Assembly (NCBI RefSeq): GCF_021028975.2
Contig: NC_059436.1
Location: 1,612,001-1,676,000 of the forward strand
DNA length: 64,000 nucleotides
From: Sphaerodactylus townsendi
Taxonomy: Eukaryota
Direction: 5' to 3'
Shown here: in pieces, positions 1,830 to 63,148 of the stretch
How the letters are laid out: every line of letters starts with the position of its first letter
How positions within the stretch are numbered: the stretch's first letter is position 1
The notes under the pieces: generated by a model
The model's database searches: none
Told to the model about the DNA's origin: nothing
The model's input: only the letters and a program-made list of their open reading frames with translations
Program-made: the position numbers and the translations under genes

Positions 1830-2128
1830 TCATTCTTCGTAATAATACATCTTCCTATCGATCAGGGCTTCCCTTATTCTCATCTCAACCCCCTTGAGAT
1901 TCACAGTTGGGTCACAGAGTGTCTTCAGTAAAGTGTCCAAAGATGCATTCTTCCCGTTTTTATCCAGCCATTTCCGAAGCATCTGATGGTGCTGTTCAGC
2001 CACATCGCCGGGGGAGTTTAATTTTGCCGTGTCAATCTCGTTGTACGTCAAACCAAGGACCGACATGTAGGAATGCCACTTGTTGAGGGGCACCTCATCC
2101 ACAAAAAGAAAGAAAGACTGACGCAAAG
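1830..2128 (-). CDS. TNFRSF10B: TNFRSF10-like exon 10, death domain
   Basis: ttccttctag acceptor; LRQSF...W..YM..LGL..NEI..AK...MLRKW..KNG..AS..TLL pattern of the DR4/DR5 death domain; TGA at 1830-1832. Confidence 0.95.
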
Positions 2129-5100: not shown

Positions 5101-8100
5101 GTAAAATATAAAATAATATACATAATAAAATACAATATGTTCTAAAACCTGCACGCATAATGCATAATTAAATAATCTTGGAACTTCTGGATGTCCCAGC
5201 CCTACCCTAAAACCCACAAAACACAGAGGGGAGGGACAAATAAAAGAAACAGGAGAAAATGAGGCCAGAAATGATCGAACCATAATTCAATTCTGTCCTC
5301 AACGACAGACCTGGCTGAACAGGCCCTGCAGAACTGAGACAAATGTCATTTGACAGAGTGTTCCACCAGGCTGGGATCAGGACCGAAAAACCCCTGGGTT
5401 TAGTTGAGGACAGGAAGACGCTTTTCAGGCCAGGGAACAACTACCAAGGGCTGCTAAAGGTTTTAACCTGTTTGTAAATTGTCCATAGTCATGCCATTTG
5501 AAAGATAGCGTATTAATCTTCAAAATAAAGTCCTGTCATTTATTGTCAGGGTGAGAGGGTGAAATCCTCCTTCTCTGCAAGATCTCACTAGTCCCTCACA
5601 TGTTAACACTTAATTTTTACCTCCCACAGAGTTGGAAGCAGATCACAATTACTCACCTTTGAGCGGATCGAGTTTGCTTTAGTTCCTGTTGTGTGGTCTG
5701 CAAAAGAGGACAAAATGCCATTAGTCAACATCAGCCTGAAAAGCCCAGATCAGGGCTATAGAAACCATTTTAATCAACTGGACAAGAACAGGGGTTGCCT
5801 CTTGCCCAGCCGTCCTTCTCAAGCTCAACATTCTCAAAACTGTCTGATGCAGAAGAAGTGTTGGTTTTTATACCCCATTTTTCTCTAAAGAATCTTAAAG
5901 CAGCTTAAAATAACCTTCCCTCCCCCCCCCCCCCCCCAGCAGCAGTGGCGTAGTGATTAAGAGCAGGCGCATTCTAATCTGGAGGAACCGGGTTTGATTC
6001 CCAGCTCTGCCGCCTGAGCTGTGGAGGCTTATCTGGGGAATTCAGATTAGCCTGTGCACTCCAATACATGCCAGCCAGGTGACCTTGGACTAGTCACAGC
6101 TTTTCGAAGCTCTCTCAGCCCCACCCACCTTACAGGGTGTTTGTTGTGGGGGGGGGGGGAGGGAAAGGAGATTGTAAGCCCCTTTGAGTCTCCTATAGGA
6201 GAGGAAGGAGGATATAAATCCAAACTACTCCTCCTCTTCCTCTTCTTCTTCTTCAACAACAGGCAACTTGTGAGGTAGGTGGGGCTGACAGAGTTCTGAG
6301 ATAACTGTGACTAGCCCAAGGTCACCCAGCAGGCTTCATATGTAAAAGTGAGGCATCATACACAGTTCTCCAGATTAGAGTCCACCACTTTTAAGCATTG
6401 CACCATTACACTGTCTCTGCTAAAGAAGCCTATCAAAAGATTACCCTCCTTCTCCAAAGTCGAAATGGCTGCACCTCCCACTCACCAAGGCAACAGTGAG
6501 AAGACAGCTGTGTCTGACAACCTCTTTGTTCTGTCAGAGAAGCTACAACAAATTATCAATGGACTTTGGTTTCCTGCAGTAACCATGACAGACAGGTGAA
6601 ACACTACATTCTCCCTTTAGTACAAGGTGCTGCACGAATGTCACTGTCCTTTCACAGATGCAATTAAATGCGGCAATGCCTCTATCTTAAATGACTTAAA
6701 GAGGGGATTATATAAGTTTATGGATAAGTCTATCACTGACTGCTGTCACAAAGGTTACATTTAGTTCACTGGATTTAGTATTGTTTGTGGTTTCATGTGA
6801 AGTCCTACCAATATGAGCACGATGGAGGCAAAAATTCCTTTCCTATTCAGTGTATAAGTTTTGAAGAAGAAGCAAAAAAAGAGAGAGCAGAATGCAGAAG
6901 CAGCAGCAAGTTTAGAATCCAGCATCTGGAAAAAAATTGTACTTTTTAAGACAGCAAATTTCTAGACCTTATGCAGCAGAAACATATTAGAAAGCATGTG
7001 GGCCAACTCCAGAAAAATCACAGAAGCCGCAGAATATGATTTTCAGCAATTGGAAGGCAGGAGCTTCAATGTTTCTTGCCCATCTTCTTGACTAGCAACT
7101 TCAGAATTAAACTATGCCTGATTATAAAATACTGGTTGCTGTATTCTGTAAATGTCAGTGCTTGGGCACAAATTTTTGGTTTCTTTTAATATAGGATACC
7201 CAAAGCCCCAGAATTACAACTATACCCTGCCCATTGACAACTGAGAAAGTTAGGACTTGTCTTCCCAGTAGTTAAGGCTGAAATACAATTTTACCTCTGG
7301 AGCACTGGAGAACTGGAGCACTGGAGCGCTGGAGAGTCTTTCTGTACTTATACATCACACAACCGAGGATAATCAGAAGAATGATGCCCAAAAGTATCCA
7401 CAGTGGAACAATTGCTTTGGAATCTCAAAAGAAAGATAAAAGATAATTAAGTAGGCATGTAGGTAAAATCCATTGTGTGAGGCCAAAGGCCACTTCACAA
7501 TATAACAAAAATAACTGCCCAGGCAATAATAAACAAATATAATTAGGGAAGACAATAATGAAGTTATAATTAGAATTGCTCGTAATACCAAACTGGACTA
7601 CTTTTGGCCCAATACTAGAAGGAACGCTGTCTCCCCACCTGAGCGCACACACAACCTGCACACACAGAGAAACCTACCGCTCTTTCCTGATGGAACAGTT
7701 GGTGAGCTTGTTGTAATCGGCACACACTGTATATCACTTTGTGGCGTGCAAGGCTGCACCATCTCTTCTCCATCAGGGCACCTAGGAGACAGAAAAAACA
7801 CTGTACTTTCTCCAGGAGAAGACAAGAAACTCGAATTCCAGACTCATCGTGTGAAATATATCTTCAGAATAAATAAAGAAGTATAGCTTCCTCAGATAGG
7901 CAGATAAGCAACATNNNNNNNNNNNNNNNNNNNNNNNNNNNNNNNNNNNNNNNNNNNNNNNNNNNNNNNNNNNNNNNNNNNNNNNNNNNNNNNNNNNNNN
8001 NNNNNNNNNNNNNNNNNNNNNNNNNNNNNNNNNNNNNNNNNNNNNNNNNGGAGGGCTCAGGGCGGTGAACACGTATAGATAGAGCACAATAACAATTTAA

Positions 8101-11100
8101 AACCACAATTTCAATAAATACAGGCTCTAATAATTAAAATATAAACCCTATCTCGTCTTGAAGCAGCATTAAAATTAGCATTAAAACAAGAATGGCATCT
8201 GCTATCAGTTCCCTCTAACCCCAAAAGGGGAAGAGACGGTAGGATCCACTTGATGTTGTAAATGGAGGGGGCCCCTATCAACTAGGTCGCATTAGGTCGC
8301 ATTACACCAGCCAGAAGAACAATTCACACTTTTGTGCTGATCATCTGGAAACAAGGCACCTGGGTTCCAGTTGTCATAAAGGTGCTGCTTGTATGTTTAC
8401 AACTCTCATTTGCCTTCCTATTTAAACCTAAGACTGCACACTTCCCTGCCTAGTGTGCAACTGACTACAGATGTACATTTACTGCTTTTTCTACTGCACA
8501 ATTAAACCTCTCCACCACTCTTAACCACTACACCACGCTGACAGAAAGGAGGTGTGGGTAGGATTCCAGGCACTGTAAAATCTTCCTAACCTCTTGCTAT
8601 GAGAATAGAAAATGACAAGCTTGTGTTTCTAAAAAGCATCTAACATGCATTGTTTTGAACTGACCTGGGTTTGCAGGTATGGCATGTTTCACATGGCTGG
8701 CTGGGGGAACAAAAAAAGGCGCCCTCCTTGCAGGCACATTCAGCATTGCTGGTTCTGGAACACAACTTTAGTGTCACTTGATCTGGAAACACAAACACAC
8801 TTGAGTTTGCATAGTTTAATTCTTTTAATTCCCAGGGAATAAATACAACACGCTTAATTAATTTTCACCTAAGCACCTGTGGCTTTTGTACAACCTGGAC
8901 GGTGCACGGATGGCAATTTGGCATGAGCAAAAACCAAAACCCAGTGAATCTAGAGACTTTCAGTTTAAAAAGAAAACAAACCTGTAGTCTTTACAACTGT
9001 GTAGTTGGTTTGGAAATGCTTGTAGATATGCTTGACATATCTCAGAAAGTCAAAGGAAGTAGTTGAATTAGATTCCCAGCTGGAGGACAGGTATTCCTGC
9101 CCAGCTGCCTGCTCTGCCCACAAGTAGCAAAAACAAAATAAAATCGTGCAGAAAAAGTAAATTGGCATAAATGCAGAATAGAGAATCCAGCTTCTCTTGA
9201 TCTAGAATGTTATTAGTGTTTAGCATGAAGTTCACACTGCCCTGAGTAGAGAAAGCCTAAGAGTGCTTAGCACCTTCCTCTATAAGTTTGAAATTATGTG
9301 CAGTCACTGATATACGTAAACTAGCTTTATTCTGAGTCAAGCCTATGGTCGATACTGACTATTCGGATGGCAGCAACTCACCAGGGTTTCAGATTATGGT
9401 CTTGCACATCACCTGTTACCTGAGCCTTTTAACAGGCCATGCAGGAAATGAACTTGGGACTTCCTGCATGCAAAAAGATGCTCTACCACTGTGCCGTAGC
9501 CACTCCTCAAACAAACAGAGCCCACCCTCTTTGAAGGACAGCTGTTCCAACCACTAAGCTGTTGGTGGATTTTGAACGTAACCCAAGGCTACCCTTAACA
9601 TGAGAACCTCCCTTCCCACTTCTTCCCATGCAAAATACCTAGAGGTCTGCAGACTTTGCAGGGAACACACTCATGGAAAGAATTCCAGTGTGTAGAGAAT
9701 GAATCGTTGGAACAGGGCTTGCAAGTCGAGTTACTGCCAGAGGTCTCACAGTGTTGTAAGACAGAATTACCTGCAAGAAGGCAATCAAATAAGAAGGCAT
9801 AAATCACTGAATCAAGGAGTATAGATTTTAAAATGACAATCTTTCTGTTCCCCCCACCCCTGGTATACAAAGTCTCCATGGTATGTTGTTGTTACCATTA
9901 GGTGGCAGGAAGAGTAGATTTTTTAATTATTATTGGGGAAGAAGAGCTTGGATTTTTCTGTCTCAAGTACCAAAAGTTCCTGGTAGACTCTTCTATGAAG
10001 AGACAATTAAATTGGGGGACTAGCATCAATCCTCATGTTTACTGGGCAGAATGGCAGGTGTATACAGTGGCACATATCTAGCTATTTTCACGGTCCACAT
10101 ATTTCTTACACCTTTATCCTGCCCTTCCTCCAGAGAACTTGGGGCAGATTAAGTGCCCCTCCAATAGTTTATTCTCCCAGCAACACTGAGGGAAGATTAA
10201 GCTGAGAGAAAGAGACTGGCTGAAAGTTACCCAATGAGCTTCATAGAACTAATTTTTCCATTTATCCAAGACCGACCAATATTGATTGTTCAAAGTGTCA
10301 GGTTCAATATATATGAACACATCTAGGTTCCAGATCTAGGTTCAAATCCTCGCTCATTCCGTGAAAGTTCGCTGGGTGACATTGAGCCAATCATATGCTC
10401 TCAGTCTGACCTAACTCACACGGTTGTTGTGAGAATAAAATAGAAGACAGGAGAAGGTTGTCAATCATTTTGGATCCCCACTGGGGAGAAAGCTAGAATA
10501 TAAGTGAACTAAATACATTTTAAACATTCATGAAAGTAAGCAACAAAAGTATAGCAAGGGCTATACTGTATTGCACCCTGCACAAGCAAAAAGGTGGCTC
10601 AGTATATGCCATGTATAACTTAGCTCAAGGGGCTAATGTGAGGGGTTTTTATCACGCTTCTGCAAGGGCACTGATACATGTCAAAATCTTCCAGTGGACA
10701 CAAGCCAAAGCCCCTGGAGATAATCTTGGTATGGCAAATGCAAGACATTGCTATTTTATATTATATTAGCTATTGCTAATCAACTCCCGAAGACCACAAC
10801 TGAATCTCTGTCATTTTAATGGAAAAGCTATTTCATTAAAAGAAAAATAATTTTCCCCCAGTGGCCAGTGGTGGCAAACCTATGGCACTCCAGATGTTCA
10901 TGGACTACAATTCCCATCAGCCCCTGACAGCATGGCCAATTGGCTGATGGAAATTGTAGTCCATGAACATCTGGAGTCCCATACGTTTGCCACCACGGCC
11001 CCAGCCTGAGCAATAGGACAGTAATCAGCTGTTAAACTAACTACCTAAAACTCTATGACTCTATTGATTCCAAATCAAGCAAGTTTTAGATTGTTTTCAA

Positions 11101-14100
11101 CTCAGCCATTGAATATTAGCAACAAACTATCCCATGAATAAACAATAACCAAAACTAGACCAGTCATCAGTCACAATAAAAAAAAGACTGAAGGAGGTCT
11201 AGTCCTATCTTTTTCTGAATCTGCAGGTGTACCTTGGAATCCTTACAGCAAACAAAGCTGAAATATCATTTCTCTTCCTACAGTAAGTTTATCCCCACAC
11301 TTCAAGAGTCTCCTTTGTAATGCTTTTTCTTTTAATTAAGTTTGTGTATTTCTTGAACAACTTGTGCCCAACTCATATTGTTCCACAAGGAGCAACACAG
11401 GTAACTGAGAAGAGTGAACTAAGGGTCAGAGAGATCTGGGGAACATGGTACCTGGCGGGCACATCCTGCAGAGATGCCCTTTATGATCATAGAACTCATT
11501 CACCTCGCGGCTCAGTTTTGAGACCACAGGAGTGGAATTCTTCTGAGAGACACTCAACGCTTTGGTGTGGTACTGAAAAACAAAAAAAAGTGTGGGTGAA
11601 AAAATTAGTCAGGAAGCTTTTTTGTTCAAGCAGCAAATGTCTACTATACTCTGTTCCACAGAAAGATGTTAGTCCGGTCAGTTAAGGTGCAGTGATTGAG
11701 ACAATGGTATGCTTCTGCATTAGAATATAGTCCCGAACGAATATGAGAATTATCGTTCATTTTTACATTGTCAAAACCATTATTTTGTGCATTATTGAAC
11801 GTGGTGCTTTGATACAAGAGCATTTATGCCAAAATGTATTTTTACTTTCAAACTTTCAAATGGATGTGGTGGGGGGAAGAGAACGGCTAGGTAGGCACTA
11901 GGCCCAGGAGGAGAATTCTACAACAAAAAAGATCCAGCACACTGTGTTTTGTAGAAGATACAACCATCTTCTAATTGTTCCTGGGCTCTAGCCAGAACTA
12001 GTTCAGTACCCAAGTAACAGCTGTACAGGAAAGGTGGTTTGGGTTGGCAGTTTGTGTTAAGTTGGTCCTGGTTCTAGCTATCGTATTCCAGATGGAAAGA
12101 CTGGATTATGATTTAAATTAGAGAACAAGATTTCTAACAGAATTAGCCAGGTTGCGTTGTCTCCGTTGTTGATTTTAGAGAAAACACATACGAAGTCAAT
12201 GCTGCTAGCCTTTATTCTGCAGTGAAAATGTTTCTGGAAATTCTTCTGCTGGTGAAAAAGGGTCTTTGATCACCACAGAGGCTATGCTGAGAAACATGGC
12301 ACCTACATGTATGAAAGTCAAGAAGAATAAGGGTGAATGGGTGAGACTGAGCAAAAAGCTGACTGGATCTAACCAACCTATAATAATTATATTGTGGTTG
12401 GTCCTCATACATTTCTCTCCTTCCATGGACCATCATAGTTGACCTACAATTTTGCTGATATATGTAGATGTGCCTTGCTCAGTGATAATCCTCAGGACTG
12501 TCACTCTGTTTATTATCAGCTTTCCTCTTGTTTGAGAACAAGAAAGGAAAACATACTAACCCACTTGAATATGTTTTGAAAGTTAACATTTGTCATATGC
12601 AAATGATCTCCTTCTGCTCTACAATTACCTTCTACTTATCTCAATAGCTTGAGCTCTAAACAGCTACCCATCTTGTATGGAAAGCTTAGGGGAGAGGAAG
12701 TCTATTCAGTCTTCACCATCCATCTATGTGTCAAATTAGTTTGAGCATCAGGCTAGATTGTACCATTGCCTCAAAAGATAAGGTCCTTTTTTGAAATAAT
12801 GGAGCTTTTTCCTCTGAAAATGTTCTGTTTCATCCATTCTTGGAACAAGTGTCTTTCAGCGTAAGGGCATTGTTCAACTAAATACAGAACTGTATCACTG
12901 AGTTTCGTAAATGACTTCTCTGCTTATTGAAGCTCTTTTAAAATTTACTTTTATTTCATTTGCGCTATTTATAGTATACTTTCTCTCTGAGATGTAAGGT
13001 GGATTACACAATGTAAGTCATTACAGTCCACAGGATGGAATATTTTAAAAAATGATTAGGACTGCAGAAATATGAAACCAAACAGAAATCTGAGTTAACG
13101 CTGAAACAAAGCAGAAGTGTTAACATGCCATGTTAAAGATGCAGAATGTACACAGTAGGATCATACAGCAACAGACAGCAGGTACTACACGCAGTAGAAT
13201 AATCCAAGTCAAAGCAAGTGAAAGGGAAAGTTCTCAGATATCCTGTGAATTGTTAACAGTTTATGATGACTCTATAGAAAAAAAGTATTCTGATGCAATT
13301 GCAGCCAATAAAGCTGGGGGGGGGGGGTGCAGTCTAAACCATCTCATCTGCTTTTGATGTAGAAATGGCTTTCAGCAATTCTTATCTGAGTTTAGGGGGG
13401 AAAGGGGGCTCTTGCAAGCCCAACCCACAAAAAGACTCCAGAGGAGCTCGCCTGACAATGAGAAATGTTCAGCTCAGTGTTCAAAGCTTGGAACTCAACA
13501 ACGGGGAATTCCCCCTGTTTTGAATGGAATTCCCCGACCTTCCTTACTGATTTAATGGAAGTCAGCCCTGGACACAGAAGATTTTGGTATGTTTGTGAGC
13601 CCCTAACTGGCTCTGTTGGGGGAAATTCTGGGAGATGAAGCCATATTTACTCTACTGTAGGAATGATTTATCATCAGGAGAGATGCAAGAAGTGCTCTGA
13701 GAAGGTCAGGGGCATTTGACTCTCAGGAAATGAATGTGTTTAATGAATTCCCAGTAAATTAACATGGATTTCAGAGATTAAGTCTTCTAACCACAAAGGT
13801 TAGAGCAGTACTGGATTGTGGTTTCCCATCCTACAAACCTGTTACTGCTGATGAGAGTAAGATCTGACAGATGCAGATGCCACACCTGTTCACAGATGTG
13901 AAAACTGGCATGGACACAGAGATGGGCATGGATAAATTATTAGGGACTGTGGTTTTTATTACTGTGTTAAACTTGCTGAATCCAGGATCCTAATTTGTCA
14001 TTTCTGCATCATTTATTGTTCGCTTTAGTTCTGTTTTTAGATTTCTGATTGGTTTTACAACCCTAATTCTATTAAATTGTTTACTGAATGTCCCATCCTG

Positions 14101-17100
14101 TTGATTATATTGACTCACTAAGTAATCTGCCTTGAATCCAAGTGAGGAAGATGGCCAATAACATATTGGTTCCTAGGAGGAGAGTAGATGGTGAAGAAAG
14201 GTAGAGTCCCTGTAATGGCAGATTTTCCTGATGAAACCAGAAGCTATTGAAACAATCAAAATAATTTGCATTGTTGCATAAATTGTCAATAGGCCGGGTG
14301 AATTCCCCGAAAACTAACATGGATTTCGGGGATTAAGTCTTCTAATTACTTTCAAATTACTCAAAAAGCCTCTTTTACAGCTATTAGATAATTTGGCTGG
14401 GTTCCTCAACTGAATGAAGCTGAGTCAAAAATATGGGGACAGATTTCCTGTGCAAACTCAGGCTCAGAGCAAAGTGTTTTGTGTGTGGGTGTGGAATTCT
14501 CATGGAATATATTTATCTGATGTTTTGTCATCATTTTGCTTTAATTATTTCAAGGAAACTTAATAGAGAAGCCTTCTGGATATGAATTTTGATGAATTAT
14601 AATTGCATTTTGACCTTGGGATTTCTACCATTATTATTCTCAAAAGCCTTCCGTTATAAGCAAGTCTACACCTGAGGAGGCGGGGGGAGAAGAAGCAGTA
14701 AATATAATGCAATTTATGACTCTGATGGGAAATGCATTCAGATGGTATTGGACCACTACTGAACATATGGGAAAATTTGCTCTCTTCAAGTGCTTACATA
14801 CTAACCATCCTTTTGAAATGTAATGCTGTTCTGCCTGTATATGCAGGCTTAAGAAGCAAGAAGGATGCTGTAGAAAAGTCTAGAAAACCTGAGCAAATAT
14901 TGTGTGGGAGAAACTGGTTCTAGTGTAGCAATGACTTCTACCTATACTAGACTGCAAGTCATAGATCGTAAGGCAAACTCATAGATCGTAAGGCAAGACC
15001 CAACTGCACAGGATAAAGGGTGCCCATGATCTTTTGTGTGACCAAATGATGTCTACAAGACCCCAAAACAGAAGCCACACACCATTTAATAGGACCACAC
15101 CATGATTTGGACCATCATAGCTACTTGCAACCCTTTTTGTGAGAATATAGAAGAGTGTCTTTGGTTTTTGGTCTTTGAAATCAGGGGCAATGGTGTAAAT
15201 TAGGGATGAACAACAGTTAGCCAAAAAATTACCCTCACAGCCACAACTAATAAAAATAGCAATAGCCATTATTACTCTTAGCAGTCCACCCCTAGACAAC
15301 ATATGGGTGGAGAGGAAGAGGCAGAAAAGTAGTACTAGTAGTAGTATGTGTTCCTCACCCCCCCCCCCTCTCTCACTCCCCCCGCCCAATAACTTTTGGC
15401 CAAACAGAGGTTTTCTGGAAACATGAAGAAGACCTGGAATATGCTTTGTGTCCAGAGCAATAAGATATTGCTAATCTGGTATAGAAGTTAGAGTGTGGAA
15501 CCTAGATTCAAACCCTCATTTTCTTATGGAAACACAGTGTCTAACCTATCTCACAAGGATATTTTTGCGAGAATAAAGTGGAGAAGGAGAGAACAATGTT
15601 GCAAGCAGCTTTGAGTCCCCATCGAGGAGGAAAGTTAAGACCAACAATTTAAAATGCCAGCATCTTACTGAATCTTAGCACCAGTTATGATTCACCAAGA
15701 CAAATGTAGACACATGTTACTCCAACTGAGCACCTCTTACACTAGACAATGCACTGTACATAGGCACAACAGCCAGTTTAATGCTAGAAGGGGTAACAAG
15801 GAATGTACCGCTGCCAAAGACTTGGCCCGTTTCCCTCCTCACTATCAAAGAAGCGCAGCTGCAGATCAGCAGCTTATTTGCTTAGTTTCCTCCCCGCACC
15901 TCCCTCCACTGGGATGAAGACCAAGAATGTTTCCAGAATGAATCATGCAGGGAGGGGGAGAGGCACAAAGTGCTTATCCAGCATGCACCTGATTTCTCTT
16001 TCTAGTTGCAGCTACTCTGTTGAAAAGAAGCACATTGGGTCCCACAGTCCTAGTTCTCGACAAGCAGAAGGTGTTTGGATGGCTGGGGGTGGGGCAGACT
16101 TCATCAGCTTGCCCAGCAACAGTACCCTGAAGCCTGGATGACTTCACTCCTACAAGGCTTCCTGTACATTAATGAGCTCTGTTGGCCATACCATTTCCTC
16201 TCCTCTTCAGATCTCTGCCAGGTTCTGTTGCTCAAAAGACAGAGAGAGGCAAGGGTCACTCCAAAACAGAAGCACAGCCGAGTCATGGCATGGAAAACTT
16301 CACCACAAGGTTTGCTGCATCATTCAGATGCATAAGAACATGGGAAAAATCATACTGGGTCACCCCAAAGGTCTCTCTAGTTCAGCATTCTGTTCAACCA
16401 GCTACCTCTAAAAAGCCTACAAAAGCGTGGCCACCCTGCTTAAGAAGCCTACAAACAGGAATAATATTGTTTACCCAGGTGCAAATTGTTTTCAGCCATA
16501 AAGAAAGAGAATTTGTATTCCACCTTTCTCTCCTGTAAGGAGACTCAAGGTAGCTTTCAAGCTCCTGTCTCTTCCTCTCCCCACAACAGACACTTTGAGG
16601 TAGGTGGGGCTGAGAGAATTCAGAGAGAACTGTGACTAGCTCAAGGTCACCCAGCAGGAACGTAGGAGTGCGGAAACACATCTGGTTCACCAGATAAGCC
16701 TCTGCCACGCAGGTGGAGGAGTGAGGAATCAAACCCAGTTCTCCAGATTAGAATCCACCTGCTCTTAACCAATACACCATGGTGGCTCCCTGAGTTACCT
16801 CTGAAAATTTCACAACAGACCTATGCCGTGAGTCATCAAAAGTTGAGAAATTCCAACTAAGCAAAATTGGCATAATGAAGACTCTAACAAAGGTGACTCC
16901 AGGGTACAGATCCTTAGGATAAGTGTGCAGAATTCAAAATGGATATCTATCTTTCTTCAGCTGTACTGGTTCTGACGGGGTGGGGGTGGTGTTTTCCCAA
17001 CCCACGGGGGAAAAGGGCTCAAGTCAACAAGTGAGTGCACACACATTTTGCTGCTGTAGAATAAGAGCCTCTTTTTCATGACTCAGGAAGAGCCATATAT

Positions 17101-20100
17101 AAAAAAGAACACTGATCTGGGTGAAATGGCTTCATTGAACAACTAACCAACATTTTATTATCACCCAAGAACACCTCTGCTTTTCAAAGAAGGCTAGTCA
17201 CACATTTGACTGAGAAAGACAATGGATCGGTAAAAGAGGTGCATGCAAGAACTGGTCCTGCCCTCATTACTGTAGGAAGCTGATCAGGAGATAAGTTTGC
17301 CTGGGAGGGAGGGAGGGGCAGTTAAAGCCACAAGTGATGAGCTCAACAAAATGATAATGTAAACAAGAGAGGGTAGCGATCACAATGATGTCATTCTTCC
17401 AGGCACAAAAAAAGCACCAGATCTTAAAATAGCAGCCCTTCCCTCAATTGCACAGGATGATGCAACCTCCCCTCCCCTCACAGACCCCCTGCCTCTTTTG
17501 GAGGATGAGGCATTGCATCATCCCTTCGGGAACCATTTGTGTCAAACTCTAACAAACTGTTGTGCTGGATCATTGTGAGTTTGGCACTCAAGACCCCTTA
17601 ATTTGGCACTCAAAACCCCCTAATGAACAAGATACGAGAAATTAAAAGCAGTTTTACTTGGCTACATTAGTAAAGTAAAAATTCCCTGCTACTTTTCAGG
17701 AACATGAGTAACGCCTGTCTGCATGGCACCTGCAGGTTTTGAATGACAAAGTGACAGTTGTGGAAGAAGCATTCAAAAGAAAGAGTAAGCAATCTTCCGG
17801 TTACATCTGGGTTTACAAAAAGCCATTATAGTAACGTCCAAGATTCAGCAACATCTTTCAGAAGACTAGCCACATCAGTGTGTTGCAAACAAGATACCAA
17901 AAAAGTGTTGTGGCACCCTGAAGACCAGCAAATATTTTTCAGCAGAAGTTTTGTGAACTGGAGTCTACTTCAACGCATGCCTGAAGTTATAGAATAAATG
18001 CACAGGTCCAAACTGGGGTTGCCAGCTCCAGGTTGGAAAATTCCCGGAGATTTGGGGGGTTGAGCCCAAGAAGGGTGGGGTTTGAGGAGGGGAGGAACCT
18101 TGGTGGGGCTTTATGTCATAGACTCGATTTTCCAAGCAGCCATTTTCTCCAGGGGAGACTGATCTCTATTGCCTGGAGATCAGTTGTAATAGCACATTTT
18201 CAACTACCACCAGGAGGCTGGCAACCCAAATACAAGCAGAAGAGAGGGGGGAGAGGAACATGCAAGTACAGGAAGATAAAAAGGTCCAATAGTTTGGGAG
18301 ATAGATAGTACCCGACAAACAAGAAAATAAATTCCTGCCAAAGACCGCACCCTCTGATGACTTCACTATTGTGAGGTCAAAAACTGTGCTTAAGGATCAA
18401 AGTATCTCAAAACAAGTTACGTCATCCAAGCAACCTTAGGTAAGACTGCCCCCAGCACTTGTAATATTATCGCTGTGGCTTCCTGAACTGTGTTTTGCCT
18501 CACGTGCTATATGTAGCATTAAACAGAACTTAAGCACGCCAGGGGTGTTCTTAAAGCCACACAGTTGTTAACAGCAAGGGGAGACTGTATAGCTGGAGGC
18601 TACTCTGGTTTCAGCCTGGTGATTATCGGTTCCAATGCAATCGTCACAATACAATAGCCATGCAAATGGCGTTTCTCCAGTGGTACTGCAGAAGAATGAA
18701 GGTGCAAGCTTCTAACTGAAACCCATAAGGTTAACCACCTCTACTGAAACCAAATGCTAGCCAGCTTCTTCACTTTAAACAGCAAAGCAAGCTCCATTAA
18801 GCAAGATGTGAACAACTCTTAGCTACTATAGAGATGCCTTCATCATCACACCTGATGGGTGTGATAGTTTATTCCACACCCCAAGAAAGGAAGAGTTGAC
18901 AAGATGTTCTAAGTAAACTTGAGACTGACTTTAAAAACAAACAAACAAATCTGGCAATAGTTTTTCTTTGGTACTCGTAACAAGACCTGACCTGGATAAT
19001 CCGGGATAGTCAGATCTTAAAAGCTAAGCAGGGTTGGCCCTAGCTAGTACTTGGATGGGAAGACCACCAAGGAAGTTCACAGTTGCTAGGCAAAGACAGG
19101 CAATGGCAAACTACTTCCATTTGTCTCCTACTTTGAAACCCCTACAAGATCACTGTGGCCCATTATGTGTGGAGCACTTTCCTCAGGACTCTCTGCTGCA
19201 CAGTGGGGTTGTAGTGGGGTCTCCTAATGTTTTTCTTTTTGTACATGAGGAGGTATCCCATTGCCTGCTGAACAATCCTGCTGTTCCTGCTTCTTTTAAC
19301 TCATTCCATCAGTTCACTCTTAAAGGCACACATCTCATCACACCCGGTAGTTGCAAGATTGCTGGCTTTATTAAAACCCTTTGGTGTTATATCAAAATTG
19401 CTGCTATTGTAGCCCTTTTCCAAAAATAATTCCCTGCCCCCAATGAAAGGGCAAGGCTATTCCCTGGATCACACCCTGCTGAAGAAGGGGACCATGTCCT
19501 GACCTAGAACTAATATTCTCTTCCCTCACTACACACACACACACACACTTCCTGCCATGGAAGGGGAGAGAGACTTCTCATATCAATATTTCTTGGTATT
19601 TCAATATTCATGTATTAGATATGTCATTATTTTGATAGATCTAATAAGGTACAAAAGCTTGAAGTTGAAATAAAGCTTTAAAAAGCCCTCCCCTTATTGT
19701 TGAAAAATAAAAGAGATAAACAAAAGAAAAGAAAAGAGACTAATGAGGAGAAAAGGGGAGGCTGTTTTGAAGAGTTCAACTGCTCACCCACACTGCTGAT
19801 TCTGGATGTTTTCAGAACTAGGGGGTCTAAAATCCAGGCCCTTCCAGTTCACCTGTCTAATTTAAGGTCCCCAATATCTGGGGAAGAGAAAGCTAAGAAA
19901 AATTTGCTGTACAGCCGGCAAAATTGCCCCTGTTAGCAATGTGTTGTCTGGGGGCACTCGGAGGTTCAACCAGAGTGAAATGCCATTCCACTGGAAGTCC
20001 TTAAAAAGCCCGCTCGATTATTGGGGAGGGCAGGGTAGAGTGAAAAAGCAAAGAATAAGGCAGGGCCATTTGTTTCATCTTCCCTGTGAAGCAGGGAAAG

Positions 20101-22453
20101 GGGTCACCTTTTTATGAGAGATTATGAGATCTGATGTGCAGCGAGTGTGAGGGTGTGTGTGTGTCCATAACGGAATCTTTGCCCTGAAAAGAATCTCCCT
20201 TCCACATGGGGCAGAGCACCACTGTATAATCAGCCTCAAAGTAAGCTGCAACTTGAAGGCAAACAAAGAAATGGTAACTCAACACAGCTCATCTACAGGA
20301 GGGCCCATGGAGTACCATGCTTGCTTTTAAACATGCAAGCTCAGAGGAACCAGATTCTGGGGGTTTCAAGCCTCTGCCCCCCACCCCCAGTTTTTGGATT
20401 CCTGCAAGTCTGATCATTGCAGAAAAAAAGAAGAGAGTTGTGAGCCCCATCATAGACTCCCGGGCATCTTATCTAGTTGGGCTCTCAGAGGACCTTCTTT
20501 GCATGCTGACAGTCAAGGCTCAATCTTATCTGACAATTGCAAAGGTTTTTTTCCCCCTGTGAGTCTGTTGTTTCAAAATAAAACAAAAATCTAGTAGCAC
20601 CTTAATAATACACCGCTACATGTTTCTAATCTTTCAAGTGCCACTGGAGGTTTGTTTTGGTTTCACTCTTATCACCGGATAAATAATCTCAGCCGCTGGG
20701 ATCCTCTCTCGTTGCCGGAAGTCCTGAAGGACTCACTCCGGCGCCACAGAATAAGACAGGAGTTTTTTATTCCAGGCCACCTTAAAGATGAACAAAACTT
20801 CTTCCAGCTGAAACTAAAACAAATCTGTCATGGGTAGAGAATACAGAGCTAGATGGACTAGCACAACTTCTGGTGTTCAAAAACACTGGCTCCTTTGCTA
20901 CTTTCAACAATAGCTCCACTCCGGATTCCCGCTGAACTGAAATTCGCAAACCAGGATAAAAACTCCCCTCCCATTCATCAAATTACACCGACTCTCAAGA
21001 GCACCCGTGAGGCGGCCGACTCCTTCATGGTGCCTTTAAGGAACGGGAAATCACGCCGAGGAAATAAGGGCTCTCTGTCTGTTCCTTTCGGACTATTCAG
21101 CCAATTCCAGCCAGCCAACAACCAATATGGAAACCGTGCAAAATATATAGTTCCCGCCCAGTAAAGATCACGTCTAAGCTAGCACCGATTCCCCTTAATC
21201 CTTTGGATGCCATCATAAAGCTGAAGGTGGGTGAGCCGCCCGGGACCTTCCCCCTGGCAATCCAACTTCTGCGACGGAGCCCGAGCCAAAGCGTGGGATG
21301 GCTCCAAGGAAGAGGCTGCCATCCCGGAATAAGCAGCACCAGACCCAGAACCACCGCGCCGGTGCTGAAACAAACGGAAAGGGAAGAGCGTGCGAGAAAA
21401 TGCAGCAGTTCAAATCTGACCCGCGACGGCTGCCACGCGCGGCACAGAAGCTGCCAGAAGCGGAGCAACTCCCCCGGGCAGAAGGCCAACTCCTCCGCAA
21501 ATGCACGTGGCTGCGCGAGCCCGACGGAAGGGGCAGGAGATGGGGGCGGCTCAGAAGGTGTCACTTAGTCCAAGGGGAGAGGGAGCTCCGCTATCTCTCG
21601 CGCTCCCCCCCACCCCCCAGTCCTTCCCCTCTGCCCGCTCCACTAGGTTTCTCCACGGGTCTTCTGACTGTGGTGGGCTTTATGAATGCGTCACGTGGGA
21701 ATGCAATGATCCGGGTCGAGATTCGCGGGACTGGGGGGACGGGACACGAGCAGTCCCAGAGACAACTCGGCCAATGGAAGTGTCACGTTTGTCTTAAGGA
21801 GCAACTGGTTGGTCGCCGGCGAAAACACCGCTCCCCTTCCCACCGAGCGTCCTCCGCAGCCCGCATCCAGCAGGCGGCCTGTACATGCCCGGGCATGCCC
21901 CCAGCCCAGAGGAGCTGCAGCCAGGCTTCCCGGCAGTGCGACCCCCGGCCCCAATTCTCTGCCCCAGCGGGGGAAGGGCTGGCTCCAAACCCACCGCCCG
22001 CACACCCAGGCCGGGACCCCAGTGCTATTCTCGCCTCCCCGCCCCCCGCAACACCGCTTCCAAGCCGTGGCTCCGGGCTCCCCCGGCGTGCGAGGGAGGA
22101 GGGGGCCCGCCGCGGAGACACATCCTCCAACTTTGCAGGGAACTTTTTAAAGCGGGACGGGGAGAGAAAAGCGACTGAGAGAGACAGCCCCTTCCCAAAG
22201 GTTGGAGCCGGGACGCCCCCAGCGAGGGTGGCTGCCCAGAGCCTTCCTCCGCCGCACCCCTGTCTGGGTGGCCTCCCTTCCAAAGCCCGACCCTCGCCCC
22301 TCACATCTGCCCAGATGCGGCCACCTTCGCGAAAACGCAACAGGCAGCAGAGGAAGCGTCGGTCCGAAAGCGGCCGCGAGAGCTTCGACTCACCAGCAGA
22401 CAGAAAGGCAGCGAAAGGGCCAGAAGCGCCCCGGCAGGCAGGGCCGTCCGCAT
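1830..22453 (-). CDS. TNFRSF10B: TNF receptor superfamily member 10-like death receptor (TRAIL-R/DR4/DR5-like), whole gene, 10 coding exons, 398 aa
   Basis: Hand-spliced exons 22394-22453, 11452-11572, 9639-9770, 8665-8782, 7678-7781, 7295-7414, 5657-5697, 4652-4783, 4292-4361, 1830-2128 total 1197 nt, all GT-AG and in phase. Product has signal peptide, CRDs, TM and a death domain preceded by LVPANG, as in DR4/DR5. Adjacent to CHMP7 as in human. The A versus B label is not resolvable; probably a co-orthologue of the mammalian cluster. Confidence 0.9.
2667..2802. mobile_element. hAT-type MITE
   Basis: TIRs CAGTGGTGGGATTC / GAATCCCACCGCTG; 8-bp TSD GAACTAAC at 2659-2666 and 2803-2810. Confidence 0.85.
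3470..3775. mobile_element. Palindromic non-autonomous DNA transposon remnant
   Basis: Inverted repeats at 3543-3566/3612-3638 plus a second hairpin near 3702-3763; locally CpG-rich. Confidence 0.55.
4292..4361 (-). CDS. TNFRSF10B: TNFRSF10-like exon 9 (ECSVLIEEEKGKLVPANGKDAEE)
   Basis: ttgtag acceptor, G|gtgagt donor, 70 nt, LVPAN motif. Confidence 0.9.
4652..4783 (-). CDS. TNFRSF10B: TNFRSF10-like exon 8 (TKLTRGQPESGDNEWN...IPLREK)
   Basis: ctgcag acceptor, AAG|gtaact donor, 132 nt; DNxxN resembles the EDNxxN motif of TRAIL receptors. Confidence 0.85.
4999..5066. repeat. (CCCCCA)n followed by (CCT)n simple repeat
   Basis: Seen directly in the sequence. Confidence 0.9.
5657..5697 (-). CDS. 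TNFRSF10B: TNFRSF10-like exon 7 (HTTGTKANSIRSK)
   Basis: ttttgcag acceptor, AAG|gtgagt donor; 41 nt converts phase 1 to phase 0 as required. Confidence 0.8.
5940..6255 (+). mobile_element. tRNA-derived CORE/MIR-related SINE (Squam3-like), nested in an older opposite-strand copy (about 5855-5938 plus 6256-6413)
   Basis: A-box TGGCGTAGTG, B-box-like GGTTTGATTCC, GGTGACCTTGG.CTAGTCAC core, (TCT)n tail. Confidence 0.8.
7295..7414 (-). CDS. TNFRSF10B: TNFRSF10-like exon 6, transmembrane (IVPLWILLGIILLIILGCVMYKYRK...)
   Basis: Hydrophobic helix of about 21 aa followed by KYRK; G|gtaaaa donor. An alternative in-frame acceptor would extend the exon to 7423. Confidence 0.85.
7297..7336. repeat. 8-bp tandem repeat CTGGAGNN x5 within the TM exon
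   Basis: CTGGAGCA CTGGAGAA CTGGAGCA CTGGAGCG CTGGAGAG. Confidence 0.9.
7678..7781 (-). CDS. TNFRSF10B: TNFRSF10-like exon 5 (CPDGEEMVQPCTPQSDIQCVPITTSSPTVPSGKS)
   Basis: tctcctag acceptor, G|gtaggt donor; CTPxSDIxC motif typical of TRAIL receptors; S/T-rich stalk. Confidence 0.9.
7915..8049. other. Assembly gap (N run) in TNFRSF10-like intron 4
   Basis: Run of N; the flanking exons join in phase. Confidence 0.99.
8665..8782 (-). CDS. TNFRSF10B: TNFRSF10-like exon 4 (QVTLKLCSRTSNAECACKEGAFFCSPSQPCETCHTCKP)
   Basis: tgtttccag acceptor, AG|gtcagt donor, 118 nt, CxCxxG and CxxC CRD pattern. Confidence 0.92.
9639..9770 (-). CDS. TNFRSF10B: TNFRSF10-like exon 3 (GNSVLQHCETSGSNSTCKPCSNDSFSTHWNSFHECVPCKVCRPL)
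   Basis: cttgcag acceptor, gtattt donor, 132 nt, TNFR CRD cysteine spacing. Confidence 0.93.
   Translation of the reverse strand, partial: VILSYNTVRPLAVTRLASPVPTIHSLHTGILSMSVFPAKSADL
10866..10998. mobile_element. Palindromic hAT-type MITE
   Basis: CAGTGGTGGCAAACC...GTTTGCCACCACGG with internal ACTACAATTCCCATCAG palindrome; same family as 31758-31903. Confidence 0.8.
11452..11572 (-). CDS. TNFRSF10B: TNFRSF10-like exon 2 (YHTKALSVSQKNST...YDHKGHLCRMCPP, partial CRD1)
   Basis: tttttcag acceptor, G|gtacca donor, 121 nt, CxxCPPG motif. Confidence 0.88.
12945..13270 (-). mobile_element. LINE 3-prime fragment (L2-like); related copies at about 13950-14165 (+) and 23995-24270 (-)
   Basis: The three segments are mutually similar by eye; family assignment is tentative. 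Confidence 0.45.
16500..16787 (-). mobile_element. tRNA-derived CORE/MIR-related SINE
   Basis: Reverse complement of the 5940 SINE family, including the extended head. Confidence 0.8.
18014..18229. mobile_element. MITE with GGGTTGCCA termini (hAT-Blackjack-like)
   Basis: GGGTTGCCAG...CTGGCAACCC; related copies at 34153-34329, about 28731-28810 and about 59268-59400. Confidence 0.7.
18985..19152 (+). mobile_element. 5S rRNA-derived SINE
   Basis: AAGCTAAGCAGGGT...AGTACTTGGATGGGA (5S A and C boxes) followed by a GGCAATGGCAAAC RTE-type tail. Confidence 0.75.
21881..21900. promoter_or_regulatory. p53 response element, two half-sites with no spacer
   Basis: GTACATGCCC-GGGCATGCCC, 19/20 match to RRRCWWGYYY x2, with both CATG cores. 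Confidence 0.8.
22394..22453 (-). CDS. TNFRSF10B: TNFRSF10-like exon 1 (signal peptide MRTALPAGALLALSLPFCLL)
   Basis: ATG with A at -3 inside a CpG island; hydrophobic leader; CTG|gtgagt donor, phase 0, matches exon 2. Confidence 0.85.
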
Positions 22454-23139
22454 CCTCCGCCACGGGATCGCCAGGGGCAGCTGCGCCCACCTGCAGGGCC
22501 CGTTGCGAGGCTGGGGACGGCTGTGCGCCTCCTATCCCGTTGAACTTCAGCTCCGCTTCACTGCCAAGAACCTCCCGCTTCGCCAGCCACCGACTGTGTG
22601 AAGCATCCCGGGCCGGGGCAGGTTGTGGTGCAGATGATGTGAGCAGAGGTTTCCGCCCAGAGGCGGTTTCAACAGGTCTCGGCGGCTCCTCTTATTCGGC
22701 CCTGAGTCTCCCGCGAGTTCCCCGAGCGGTGAGCAAGCCAAAGTTGCGCAAACTTCGCCGTTCAGGCTGCGTGTTGAACAAGTGGGCGGGAGGATGGAGG
22801 AGGGGAAGGAGATACTTCACGCCTGGAAAAAAATAGTGCAGAAAGACTGCGTGAGGTTTACTTACTGTAGGCCTTCAGGAGGAAAAAATGGCAGAAGGAA
22901 CAGTAGCGATCTGAGATCTGCAGGTGACCCCACGACGTGTTGCTAGCAGACGATAGGGAAGACCCCCAACGACTCCTGATGAAGGTTTCAGTGGCAAATG
23001 CCAAAGCAGGATTGCAGCCAAATGTCAAAACGACCAAAGTAACAGCTACAGGGTAATCTCAGAACTCTAAGAAGAAATTGGCACGTGTTCAGGTTTTCTG
23101 CTCCTTGGCTCCATCAACAGTCACTGGGCATGAGACACC

Positions 23140-23306
23140 ACGAAGAAAGCAGGCAGGGCAAAAGTTGATTCCTTTGAAAAGTGCCTTTGGAAGAGTGTTG
23201 TACAAATATCATGGATGACCAAAAAGACAAAAAAGAGGGTTCCAGACCAGTTCAAGGTTGAGCCCTTCTTAGGAGCTAAAATGGCTAAACTGAGGCTATT
23301 GTGCTT
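23140..23306 (+). mobile_element. RTE/BovB-like LINE fragment
   Basis: Translates as KVDSFEKCLWKSVVQISWMTKKT...MAKLRL, resembling the RTE ORF C-terminal IDAFELWCWRRLLRVPWTA motif. Confidence 0.6.
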
Positions 23307-36639: not shown

Positions 36640-37240
36640 TCACTGCCACCCCCAGCGCAAAACGAGAGTCGTAATCAAACCGGAAGTCTAGAAACGCACG
36701 TTCGTTACTATCTTTTTCTCTTTCCCTATTCTTGGATTCGCGCCAGTCACCCGTCTTCTGTGCGCATGCTCAATCTGCCGGCGGCGCATGCGTGTTGTTG
36801 CGTCTTCGTCTCTGAGGAAACGCCTGGCAAGGGAGCGGTGAAGGGAACTAGGCCAAAGCCGGGGACTTGCGTAAATGTGTTCGCCGGAGGAGGCGCGCGT
36901 GGCGCCTGTCCCGGAGAGAGACTTGCCCCCGGAATGGGAGACGGACGAAGAGCGAATGGCCTTTCTGTTCTCTGCTTTCAAGCAGAGTCGGGAGGTCAAC
37001 GCCACCGACTGGGATAGTAAGATGGGGTTTTGGAGCGAGCTGGTGCTTAAGCGCGGGCGCCGCCGGGGAGAGGTGCGCACTTGTTTACGTGAGCTCCAGC
37101 TGGCCTTCGAGCGGCGGGGCAGCGTCCCGTTGGGGCTGGGCACCGTCCTTCGCGAGCTGCTCAGGTACCGCAGACGGGCCTTTTGTTTTTTTGTTGCTTG
37201 TGTTTGCCAGGATCACCGGCGCCTCTGAGCATGTGCAGAA
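36640..37240 (+). promoter_or_regulatory. CHMP7 CpG-island promoter with ETS and NRF1 motifs
   Basis: ACCGGAAGT at 36679-36687; TGCGCATGC at 36761-36769; GCGCATGCG at 36784-36792; housekeeping-type promoter architecture. Confidence 0.75.
36875..37164 (+). CDS. CHMP7: CHMP7 coding exon 1
   Basis: MCSP...[37 protein letters not shown]; AG|gtaccg donor. Confidence 0.95.
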
Positions 37241-61759: not shown

Positions 61760-63148
61760 ATGGATTCTTCGGGACCTCTAGTAGCCATGAATGGACTTTA
61801 CCAGCATGGACGAGGAGGTGGTGCATCGGCGATGACTAATGATAGCCTCACAAAGGAAGGCAAGGTGAAAGAGGGCACGCCAGAGCTTTCCTTACGAGTG
61901 GTGATGGCCCCTTTGCTGTTCCTCCTCATCCTCTCTACCCTGCTGGGCAATACTCTTGTGTGCCTGTCTGTGGTCAAATTCAGGCATTTGCGCTCCAAGG
62001 TCACCAACTTCTTCGTCATCTCACTGGCTGTTTCTGATCTCTTTGTGGCTGTGCTGGTGATGCCCTGGAAGGCAGTCACTGAGGTGGCCGGCTTCTGGCC
62101 TTTTGGTGGCTTCTGCGATGTCTGGGTAGCCTTTGACATCATGTGCTCCACAGCATCGATCCTCAACCTGTGCATCATCAGCGTGGATCGCTACTGGGCT
62201 ATCTCCAGCCCCTTTCGCTATGAGCGGAAAATGACCCAGCGGGTGGCATTTGTAATGATTGGGGTGGCCTGGATGCTCTCTGTTTTGATCTCCTTCATAC
62301 CCGTCCAGCTGAGGTGGCACAAAGCTGGCGAGCTTCTCCCTGCCCGCGAAATGGGCCCCAATGTCACATGGAGCCCTGAAGAAAACTGTGACTCCAGCCT
62401 CAACAGAGCTTATGCTATTTCTTCCTCCCTGATTAGCTTCTACATTCCTGTTGCTATCATGATAGTGACATACACCAGGATCTTCCGCATTGCCCAGAAG
62501 CAGATACGGAGGATTTCTTCTTTGGAGAGGGCTGTGGAGCATGCCCAGAGCTGCCAGAGTCCCCGTGGCTGTCCTCATGACATCTCTTTGAAGAATTCCT
62601 TTAAAAAAGAAACCAAGGTCCTCAAGACCCTCTCGGTCATAATGGGCGTTTTCGTCTTCTGCTGGCTTCCTTTTTTTGTCCTCAACTGTGTGGCACCGTT
62701 CTGTGACCCCAGCCTTCACACACTGGGGAAATTCCCTTGTGTTAGCAAGACGATCTTCAACATCTTTGTGTGGTTTGGCTGGGCAAATTCTTCCCTCAAC
62801 CCCATCATCTATGCTTTCAACGCTGACTTCCGGAAGGCCTTTGCTACTCTCCTCGGCTGTGGCCGATTCTGCCCCAGCAATGCGGTGGAGGCAGTGAATT
62901 TCAGCAACGAGCTGGTCTCGTACCACCATGACACCACCTGTCAGAAAGACTTGGTCACTCTGAGTTACCCACACCTTCTCCCCCATGCAACCTCCCTCCA
63001 AGGGGAGGACAATGATGCTGCTTGTGAAAAGGCCTCCCAAACCTCTCCCAAAAATGCCGCTGTCTTGTCTGCTGTAGTGCACATGGAGTGCGAGACTGAC
63101 TTATCATTGGAGAAGATCACACCTGTCACCTCTCATGTGTTGGATTGA
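61760..63148 (+). CDS. DRD1C: D1-class dopamine receptor, D1C-like, intronless ORF, 462 aa
   Basis: 7TM GPCR with [15 protein letters not shown] (Asp3.32), [12 protein letters not shown] (TM5 serines), CWLPFF and [13 protein letters not shown] and [18 protein letters not shown] match amphibian D1C as I recall it. Subtype needs a phylogeny to confirm. Confidence 0.9.

What the first reader, a model, noticed from the sequence alone, without database searches (positions are those of the whole stretch)
21881..21900. Near-perfect intronic p53 element in a reptile TRAIL-receptor gene
Seen: the gene-strand sequence GGGCATGCCC-GGGCATGTAC, with zero spacer, about 490 nt into intron 1. Established: human DR5, DR4, DcR1 and DcR2 and mouse DR5 are p53 targets through an element in proximal intron 1; from memory the human first half-site is GGGCATGTCC. 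Inference: the p53-to-death-receptor link and its intronic position date back to the amniote ancestor, unusually deep for a p53 element.
Basis: partly seen in the sequence, partly recalled or inferred. Interest (0 to 1): 0.7.

Follow-up and report, generated by a model that had tools for sequence, protein, structure and literature searches.

The report
p53 site in gecko death-receptor intron
A near-perfect p53-type binding motif lies in the first intron of a gecko TRAIL death-receptor gene, the same-numbered intron that carries the known p53 switch of human DR5, so p53 likely turns this cell-death gene on in lizards too; whether the motif was inherited from the reptile-mammal ancestor or arose anew is untested.

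Summary
The 20-mer matches the p53 consensus at 19 of 20 positions, with two CATG cores and no spacer. It starts 494 nt into intron 1 of a gecko TNFRSF10B-like gene that lies between a RhoBTB gene and CHMP7, inside the promoter CpG island. Chance is about 0.0002-0.001 per kb. A gecko LTR-like family spreads perfect p53 sites, but this one is not detectably derived from it. Gecko CDKN1A and a sestrin also carry strong sites, whereas FAS, BTG2 and RRM2B do not. It is likely a functional p53-family element. The claim of amniote ancestry is not shown. Its 15/20 identity to the human DR5 element is equalled by unrelated LTR sites. Only very close relatives could be compared: they are unchanged, which is uninformative. 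No turtle, bird or distant lizard intron was reachable. A chicken p53 study does not list TNFRSF10B, zebrafish TRAIL receptors are not early p53 responders, and TP53 itself was not found in this assembly. The scan has noted deep p53 sites at other genes (skate FBXW7, placozoan MDM2) but not this one. New member of a known kind; interest 0.38.

The parts
21881..21900 (-). p53-family response element, two decamer half-sites with no spacer, both cores CATG, 1 mismatch to consensus (position 19)
   Evidence: 18/20 identical to the perfect test site ConA of PMC2667269; unchanged in organisms B, C and D
22394..22453 (-). Coding part of exon 1 of the TNFRSF10B-like gene (20-codon hydrophobic signal-peptide-like segment), followed by a GTGAGT donor at 22393
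   Evidence: upstream DNA read in another frame matches the N-terminal extension of the Euleptes model P0002 at 10/13 residues, E=0.003; inferred from DNA, no RNA evidence
11573..22393 (-). Intron 1 (10,821 nt, phase 0)
21001..23000 (.). CpG island over the promoter, exon 1 and proximal intron 1, containing the element
   Evidence: GC 61-63%, CpG observed/expected 0.75-0.76, against about 0.2 in most of the window
7678..11572 (-). Exons 2-5, encoding the cysteine-rich ectodomain (11572-11452, 9770-9639, 8782-8665, 7781-7678); transmembrane exon near 7418
1830..2128 (-). Last coding exon, death domain
   Evidence: PF00531 E=1.6e-14; only one TNFRSF10-like death domain found in G000
36875..37168 (+). 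First coding exon of CHMP7, head to head with the receptor gene
   Evidence: 95% identical to a gecko CHMP7
21600..21841 (-). Segment just 3' of the element with an 83%-identical, CpG-decayed second copy at G000:C7:53239306; the homology stops about 40 nt short of the element
22744..22751 (.). Palindromic C/EBP-type core about 290 nt upstream of the ATG (motif recalled; untested)
   Evidence: 2 places in the window

Best explanation
The 20-mer is a near-consensus p53-family motif in the proximal first intron of the gecko TRAIL death-receptor gene, and it likely works as a stress switch: a p53 tetramer would bind both half-sites in the open CpG island and raise transcription from the promoter about 0.6 kb upstream. 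More receptor would then sensitise damaged cells to TRAIL-type extrinsic apoptosis, as for human DR5. Shown: the motif, its position, the gene identity, its rarity, and no detectable transposon origin. Inferred: binding, activation, and that the p53-to-TNFRSF10 link is old (amniote). Whether these same bases descend from the ancestral site, or replaced it by turnover within the same intron, is open.
For: Motif quality and rarity: and about 0.2 such sites per Mb genome-wide, repeats included (562 strand matches, roughly 320 places by my estimate from the first 100 rows). All four core C/G positions are intact, and these are the positions that most affect binding (PMC2667269 section 7). Same gene family and same intron number as the validated human sites. 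The human TNFRSF10B peak lies about 540 nt from the TSS in 24 of 28 ChIP sets and the mouse peak about 240 nt from the TSS in 7 of 9. Mouse Tnfrsf10b induction is p53-dependent. Strong sites concentrate at p53-target orthologues in this genome: 3 sites with <=1 mismatch in 265 kb around 6 target orthologues (this one included), against 0 in 269 kb of 11 control regions and 0 in a further 60 kb around 6 BTG/TOB paralogues. RRM2B, which is not p53-regulated in mouse, lacks a site in the gecko. The flanks are unlike the p53-bearing LTR family.
Against: There are no binding, expression or reporter data. TP53 itself was not found in G000: two searches returned only two loci, p63/p73-like by my recall of the sequences. 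Chicken TNFRSF10B is not in the direct-target table of an LMH p53 study, whereas MDM2 is. Zebrafish hdr and tnfrsfa are absent from the early irradiation lists and rise only in the mdm2-null 18 hpf table, which holds many secondary genes. Only 2 of the 6 other target orthologues examined (CDKN1A and the C6 sestrin; not the C1 sestrin, FAS, RRM2B or BTG2) have a <=1-mismatch CWWG/CWWG site, so turnover is common. Invariance in close relatives is not significant (P=0.38). Identity to the human site is uninformative. I chose the target and control groups myself, and they are small.
Confidence: 0.55

Rival explanations
1. Convergent gain: the site is functional but arose by point mutation in a gecko or squamate lineage, in a GC-rich island where GGGCATGCCC-like words are only a few changes away, and was then kept by selection independently of mammals.
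For: 15/20 identity to the human site is expected of any strong GC-rich site (43% of GC-weighted perfect sites). The gecko second half-site is identical to the first half-site of the unrelated mouse Fas element. 28 of 86 shared human-mouse targets use different sites, and apoptosis elements are poorly conserved even among mammals (PMC1934401 abstract). The chicken table lacks the gene.
Against: It needs independent recruitment of the same gene in the same intron. Human and mouse both have a TSS-proximal site. The chicken study used p53 overexpression in one hepatoma line.
Confidence: 0.2
2. The site is used mainly by p63 or p73 (for example in epidermis or immune cells) rather than by p53.
For: The human TNFRSF10B element is a shared p53+p63 site, bound by p63 in 12 data sets (PMC7735755 supplement). 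Only p63/p73-like loci were found in G000.
Against: Two CATG cores with no spacer and G-rich flanks are 18/20 identical to the optimal p53 test site. Failure to find TP53 is more likely an assembly gap or a first-look miss (inference).
Confidence: 0.1
3. Neutral coincidence: a non-functional motif produced by the GC-rich, palindrome-prone island.
For: No functional data. Conservation in close relatives is not above background.
Against: Chance of 0.0002-0.001 per kb; 0 such sites in about 329 kb of control regions; the longest change-free stretch of the 739 nt compared (85 nt) covers the element (P about 0.06, post hoc).
Confidence: 0.1
4. The site was delivered by a transposon, namely the gecko LTR-like family that carries a perfect p53 palindrome with the same 14-nt core.
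For: 13 of 20 fetched genomic p53-like sites (hand-picked by sequence type from the first 100 rows) lie in this family, and 60 copies keep both the 5' end and the site. There is precedent in fish and human (PMC3485254 abstract).
Against: The anchored flank score is 9, against 41-156 between family members. 57 of 250 (best score) and 24 of 250 (mean score) random island flanks do as well. No LTR end lies at the expected distance. The nearby dispersed 250-nt segment lacks the site in its other copy.
Confidence: 0.04

Closest known systems
Human TNFRSF10B (KILLER/DR5) intron-1 p53 element, and the matching sites of DR4, DcR1 and DcR2 (element in the PMC1888811 appendix; PMC7563660 passage; Takimoto 2000 and Liu 2004/2005 seen only as reference titles)
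   Same: Same receptor family, first intron, zero spacer, a strong first half-site and a second half-site that departs from consensus at its 3' end; 15/20 identical.
   Different: The gecko site is closer to consensus (two CATG cores; the human second core is CAAG). It lies 553 nt after the ATG, against about 0.25 kb in human (recalled). One death-domain-bearing gene was found instead of the four-gene primate cluster. No binding or activity has been shown, and the flanks were not aligned.
Mouse Tnfrsf10b p53 peak (PMC6755996 supplement row; p53-dependent induction in PMC12145846 supplement rows)
   Same: A DR5-type gene with a p53 site close to the 5' end.
   Different: The mouse peak is about 240 nt from the TSS. 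I did not see its sequence, so its homology to the human or gecko site is unchecked.
Core of 86 direct p53 targets shared by human and mouse, proposed to be kept across vertebrates (Fischer 2019, PMC6755996; passages, Table 1 and supplement rows)
   Same: Gecko CDKN1A and a SESN2-like gene, both on that list, carry strong sites, as does this gene.
   Different: TNFRSF10B is not in that table, which was limited to one-to-one orthologues. Gecko FAS and BTG2, also on the list, lack strong CWWG/CWWG sites.
Transposon-borne p53 sites (zebrafish EnSpmN6_DR, human LTRs; PMC3485254 abstract)
   Same: This genome has an analogous p53-site-bearing LTR-like family.
   Different: The intronic element is not detectably part of it.

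Membership tests
Canonical p53 response element | Two RRRCWWGYYY decamers, with few mismatches and intact core C/G | tested here: met
   19/20, both cores CATG
Canonical p53 response element | Spacer of 0-1 nt | tested here: met
   zero spacer
Canonical p53 response element | Close to the TSS (promoter or intron 1) in open chromatin | tested here: inconclusive
   494 nt into intron 1, inside a CpG island; TSS and chromatin state not measured
Canonical p53 response element | Bound by p53 in cells and drives p53-dependent transcription | not testable with these tools
   no gecko ChIP, RNA or reporter data
Canonical p53 response element | A p53 gene is present in the genome | tested here: inconclusive
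   only two p53-family loci were found, p63/p73-like by recall; these searches score only the best candidates
TNFRSF10 (TRAIL receptor) gene | TNFR cysteine-rich ectodomain closest to DR5/DR4, a transmembrane segment and a C-terminal death domain | tested here: met
TNFRSF10 (TRAIL receptor) gene | Lies between RHOBTB2 and CHMP7 (human gene order recalled) | tested here: met
   a Ras+BTB exon lies about 11 kb left of the window; CHMP7 is head to head on the right
Orthologue of the human DR5 intron-1 element (ancestral amniote site) | Sequence identity beyond what the p53 consensus imposes | tested here: not met
   15/20 is equalled by unrelated LTR sites and by 10-43% of perfect sites
Orthologue of the human DR5 intron-1 element (ancestral amniote site) | Present at the alignable position in intermediate lineages (other squamates, turtles, birds, monotremes) | not testable with these tools
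   only relatives about 96-99% identical were reachable; indirect searches were empty
Orthologue of the human DR5 intron-1 element (ancestral amniote site) | Under purifying selection | tested here: inconclusive
   unchanged in 3 of the 3 other organisms that cover it, but P=0.38 by chance
Gecko p53-site-bearing LTR-like family | Flanks homologous to the family, with an LTR end about 38 nt upstream | tested here: not met

The most novel reading that the evidence does not exclude
The intron-1 p53 element of the TRAIL death receptor is one inherited site, gained after the split from bony fish and kept in geckos and mammals since the amniote ancestor. It would be one of very few apoptosis-gene p53 elements to survive that long, and it would date the wiring of p53 to extrinsic apoptosis.
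Probability: 0.3. Interest if true: 0.6.

Novelty: new member of a known kind. Interest (0 to 1): 0.38.

Why it matters
p53 elements in apoptosis genes turn over fast even among mammals (PMC1934401), and a zebrafish-mouse comparison suggests that p53 control of TNFRSF10B is a later adaptation (PMC12145846). A working site in a lizard would bracket the origin of the p53-to-TRAIL-receptor link between the fish split and the amniote ancestor, or else show repeated recruitment of the same gene. Either result is directly testable with public sauropsid genomes and one reporter assay. It extends a known circuit to a new lineage and does not reveal a new mechanism.

Tried and rejected
Transposon origin from the LTR-like family: rejected. 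Origin from the adjacent dispersed segment: rejected, because the homology ends about 40 nt away and the other copy lacks the site. Identity to the human element as proof of homology: rejected. Deep comparison through sequencing runs reached only close relatives. No RNA holder was listed. In the change count I left out the rows that came from the second, paralogous contig of X5 (21685-21732) and merged duplicate events at the same place. Host contigs in metagenomes through CHMP7: none. Spurious reading frames across the element, used to catch orthologous DNA in protein collections: no hits. MDM2 was wanted as a benchmark but was not found by PF02201, which returned only SMARCD-like loci (naming recalled). 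The FAS benchmark is weak: its exon 1 is uncertain, and two 1-mismatch sites with a broken CWWG core (one about 7 kb into the putative intron) were excluded by the criterion. One such site near a TOB gene was likewise excluded, and one 2-mismatch site lies there. The reversed-pattern control turns CATG into GTAC and is not composition-matched, so the 17-fold excess is not a clean enrichment. Literature: searches listed no paper on a reptile TNFRSF10 p53 element, but one search was swamped by general reptile papers and most subscription journals are not held. The supplements of PMC1934401 could not be read and Jegga 2008 is not held; both may give multi-species alignments of the DR5 element. 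That zebrafish hdr and tnfrsfa are TNFRSF10 orthologues is recalled; searches did not confirm it. NF-kB, CRE, CHOP and CARE consensus scans of 21000-23200 found nothing.
Full report
Observation. The sequence is as described. Window 21881-21900 reads GGGCATGCCC-GGGCATGTAC on the minus strand. It has one mismatch to the doubled p53 decamer and is the only such site in the window; the three 2-mismatch hits are at chance level. Markov models of the surrounding CpG island gave an equally good site in 7, 1 and 1 of 6000 simulated kilobases, and none with two CATG cores. It is 18/20 identical to the perfect test site ConA and keeps the four core positions that most affect binding (PMC2667269; passages and section 7).

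Gene. The host gene is on the minus strand. Exon 1 encodes 20 hydrophobic codons (22453-22394) and splices in phase 0 over a 10,821-nt intron to exon 2; the element begins at intron nt 494. The database model P0001 lacks this exon. The Euleptes model P0002 has a similar signal peptide at that place, and its N-terminal extension matches DNA upstream of exon 1 (10/13 residues, E=0.003). The protein has TNFR repeats and a death domain, and its nine best PDB hits are human DR5. CHMP7 lies head to head on the right and a Ras+BTB gene on the left, which is the human 8p21 order (recalled). One TNFRSF10-like death domain was found in G000 among 23 death-domain matches.

What is known in mammals. First-intron sites in DR4, DR5, DcR1 and DcR2 are stated in PMC7563660 (passage). 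Human TNFRSF10B has a p53 peak about 540 nt from the TSS in 24 of 28 data sets, and mouse Tnfrsf10b about 240 nt from the TSS in 7 of 9 (PMC6755996 supplement rows). The human element is also bound by p63 in 12 data sets (PMC7735755 supplement rows).

Is it transposon-borne? The pattern RRRCATGYYYRRRCATGY has 282+280 strand matches in G000. Of 20 hand-picked sites, 13 lie in one repeat family, 5 in a second and 2 in neither. The first family is about 420 nt with TG..CA ends and 5-nt target duplications in 7 of 8 copies examined (3 exact, 4 with one mismatch), so it is solo-LTR-like. It carries a perfect p53 palindrome 38 nt from its start, and 60 copies keep both features. It shares the 14-nt core with the intronic site, but the flanks do not match: score 9 against 41-156 within the family, with 57 of 250 and 24 of 250 random flanks doing as well. 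A 250-nt segment just downstream has a decayed copy on C7 that lacks the site.

Is it the same site as in human? The identity is 15/20, but two LTR-borne variants also reach 15/20, as do 10% of all perfect CATG/CATG sites and 43% when GC-weighted. The gecko second half-site equals the first half-site of the unrelated mouse Fas element. Public runs gave only close relatives. The element is unchanged in organisms B (X4), C (X5) and D (X6-X8). With 35 changed places in 739 nt, an unchanged 20-mer has P=0.38, and an 85-nt change-free stretch around it has P=0.06 (rows of the paralogous contig left out). No distant sauropsid sequence was reachable.

Benchmarks in the same genome. CDKN1A (named) has a 1-mismatch and a 2-mismatch site upstream of its CpG island. 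A sestrin on C6 (SESN2-like by my recall of its N-terminus; searches do not separate the paralogues) has a 1-mismatch site about 600 nt into intron 1. FAS, RRM2B, the C1 sestrin and BTG2 have none at <=1 mismatch with intact CWWG cores. The totals are 3 sites in 265 kb of six target regions (this one included) and 0 in 269 kb of eleven control regions; a further 60 kb of BTG/TOB controls and 10 kb of BTG2 also have 0. CDKN1A, SESN2, FAS and BTG2 are among the 86 human-mouse shared targets, while mouse Rrm2b is not p53-regulated. So strong sites in this gecko sit preferentially at p53-target orthologues, which argues against chance. Only about half of the shared targets keep one, which shows turnover. 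The groups are small and were chosen by me.

Other vertebrates. A chicken p53 ChIP-seq and RNA-seq study found the human-like motif (passages), but its direct-target table lacks TNFRSF10B while listing MDM2 (supplement search; the only TNFRSF10B hit is in a figure of human targets). In zebrafish, TNFRSF10B orthologues were not among the early p53-induced genes, and the authors call the induction an evolutionary adaptation (PMC12145846 passages). hdr and tnfrsfa (orthology recalled) do rise in the mdm2-null table (log2 2.3 and 1.2), which includes secondary genes. Horvath 2007 reports poor conservation of apoptosis elements (abstract and passages). Fischer 2019 finds a conserved, apoptosis-enriched core and suggests wider vertebrate conservation. 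TP53 was not found in G000, which is a gap in the chain of evidence. Also consulted, as passages only: PMC5511239, PMC12462388 and PMC3430210; PMC3485254 as abstract only.

Mechanism and verdict. Most likely a p53 tetramer, stabilised by stress, binds the site in the promoter CpG island and raises receptor transcription, priming extrinsic apoptosis (inferred). The link is probably old, but inheritance of this exact site (about 0.3) cannot be told from turnover or convergent gain with the data reachable here. Searches listed no report of this element, within the limits of the library. Earlier scan notes hold none on this gene but several on deep p53 sites elsewhere. It is a new member of a known kind, with interest 0.38, or 0.6 if the single-ancestral-site reading proves true.

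Noticed in passing
G000, e.g. L006:963-1378, L007, L011, L012, L021, L023; 60 places listed: A solo-LTR-like family of about 420 nt (TG..CA ends, 5-nt target duplications) carries a perfect or near-perfect p53 palindrome 38 nt from its start. It is a gecko parallel to p53-site-bearing LTRs in human; the parent element was not identified.
   Followed up: partly
G000, L014-L018 (motif at 1001-1020): A second, unclassified repeat family of about 600-800 nt carries a perfect-consensus p53-like 20-mer and makes up many of the genome-wide matches.
   Followed up: no
G000:C5:80379322 and C5:80387810 (L098, L099): Two strong p53-like sites upstream of the gecko CDKN1A CpG island, recalling the two upstream sites of mammalian p21.
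   Followed up: partly
G000:C6:109908655 (L116): A 1-mismatch p53-like site about 600 nt into intron 1 of a SESN2-like gene.
   Followed up: partly
G000 whole: TP53 was not found; only two p53-family loci (C16, C8; p73- and p63-like by recall) were returned. MDM2 was also not returned by PF02201. These are probably assembly gaps or search misses.
   Followed up: partly
window 22744-22751: A palindromic C/EBP-type core about 290 nt upstream of the ATG. Human DR5 is also induced through CHOP (PMC3430210 passages), so a second stress input may be shared.
   Followed up: no
window 21600-21841 and L002:1501-1750: A 250-nt piece of the intron-1 CpG island has one CpG-decayed copy on C7, and a similar second contig is seen in organisms C and D. 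It contains a CCAAT box and an E-box; how it was copied is unknown.
   Followed up: partly
protein P0001: The public model of this receptor starts at exon 2 with a lone Met and misses the signal-peptide exon at 22453-22394.
   Followed up: partly
G000:C2:82952732-82978437 (L052, L070-L072): Another death receptor with cysteine-rich exons and a divergent death domain that I could not name; it has no strong p53 site.
   Followed up: no
window 61760-63145 (+): An intronless rhodopsin-family receptor (PF00001), D1-class dopamine-receptor-like by recall, beyond CHMP7.
   Followed up: no
G000:C3:124092952 (L135): A 2-mismatch p53-like site with two CATG cores about 8.7 kb upstream of a TOB coding exon, near an exon of a neighbouring gene.
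   Followed up: no
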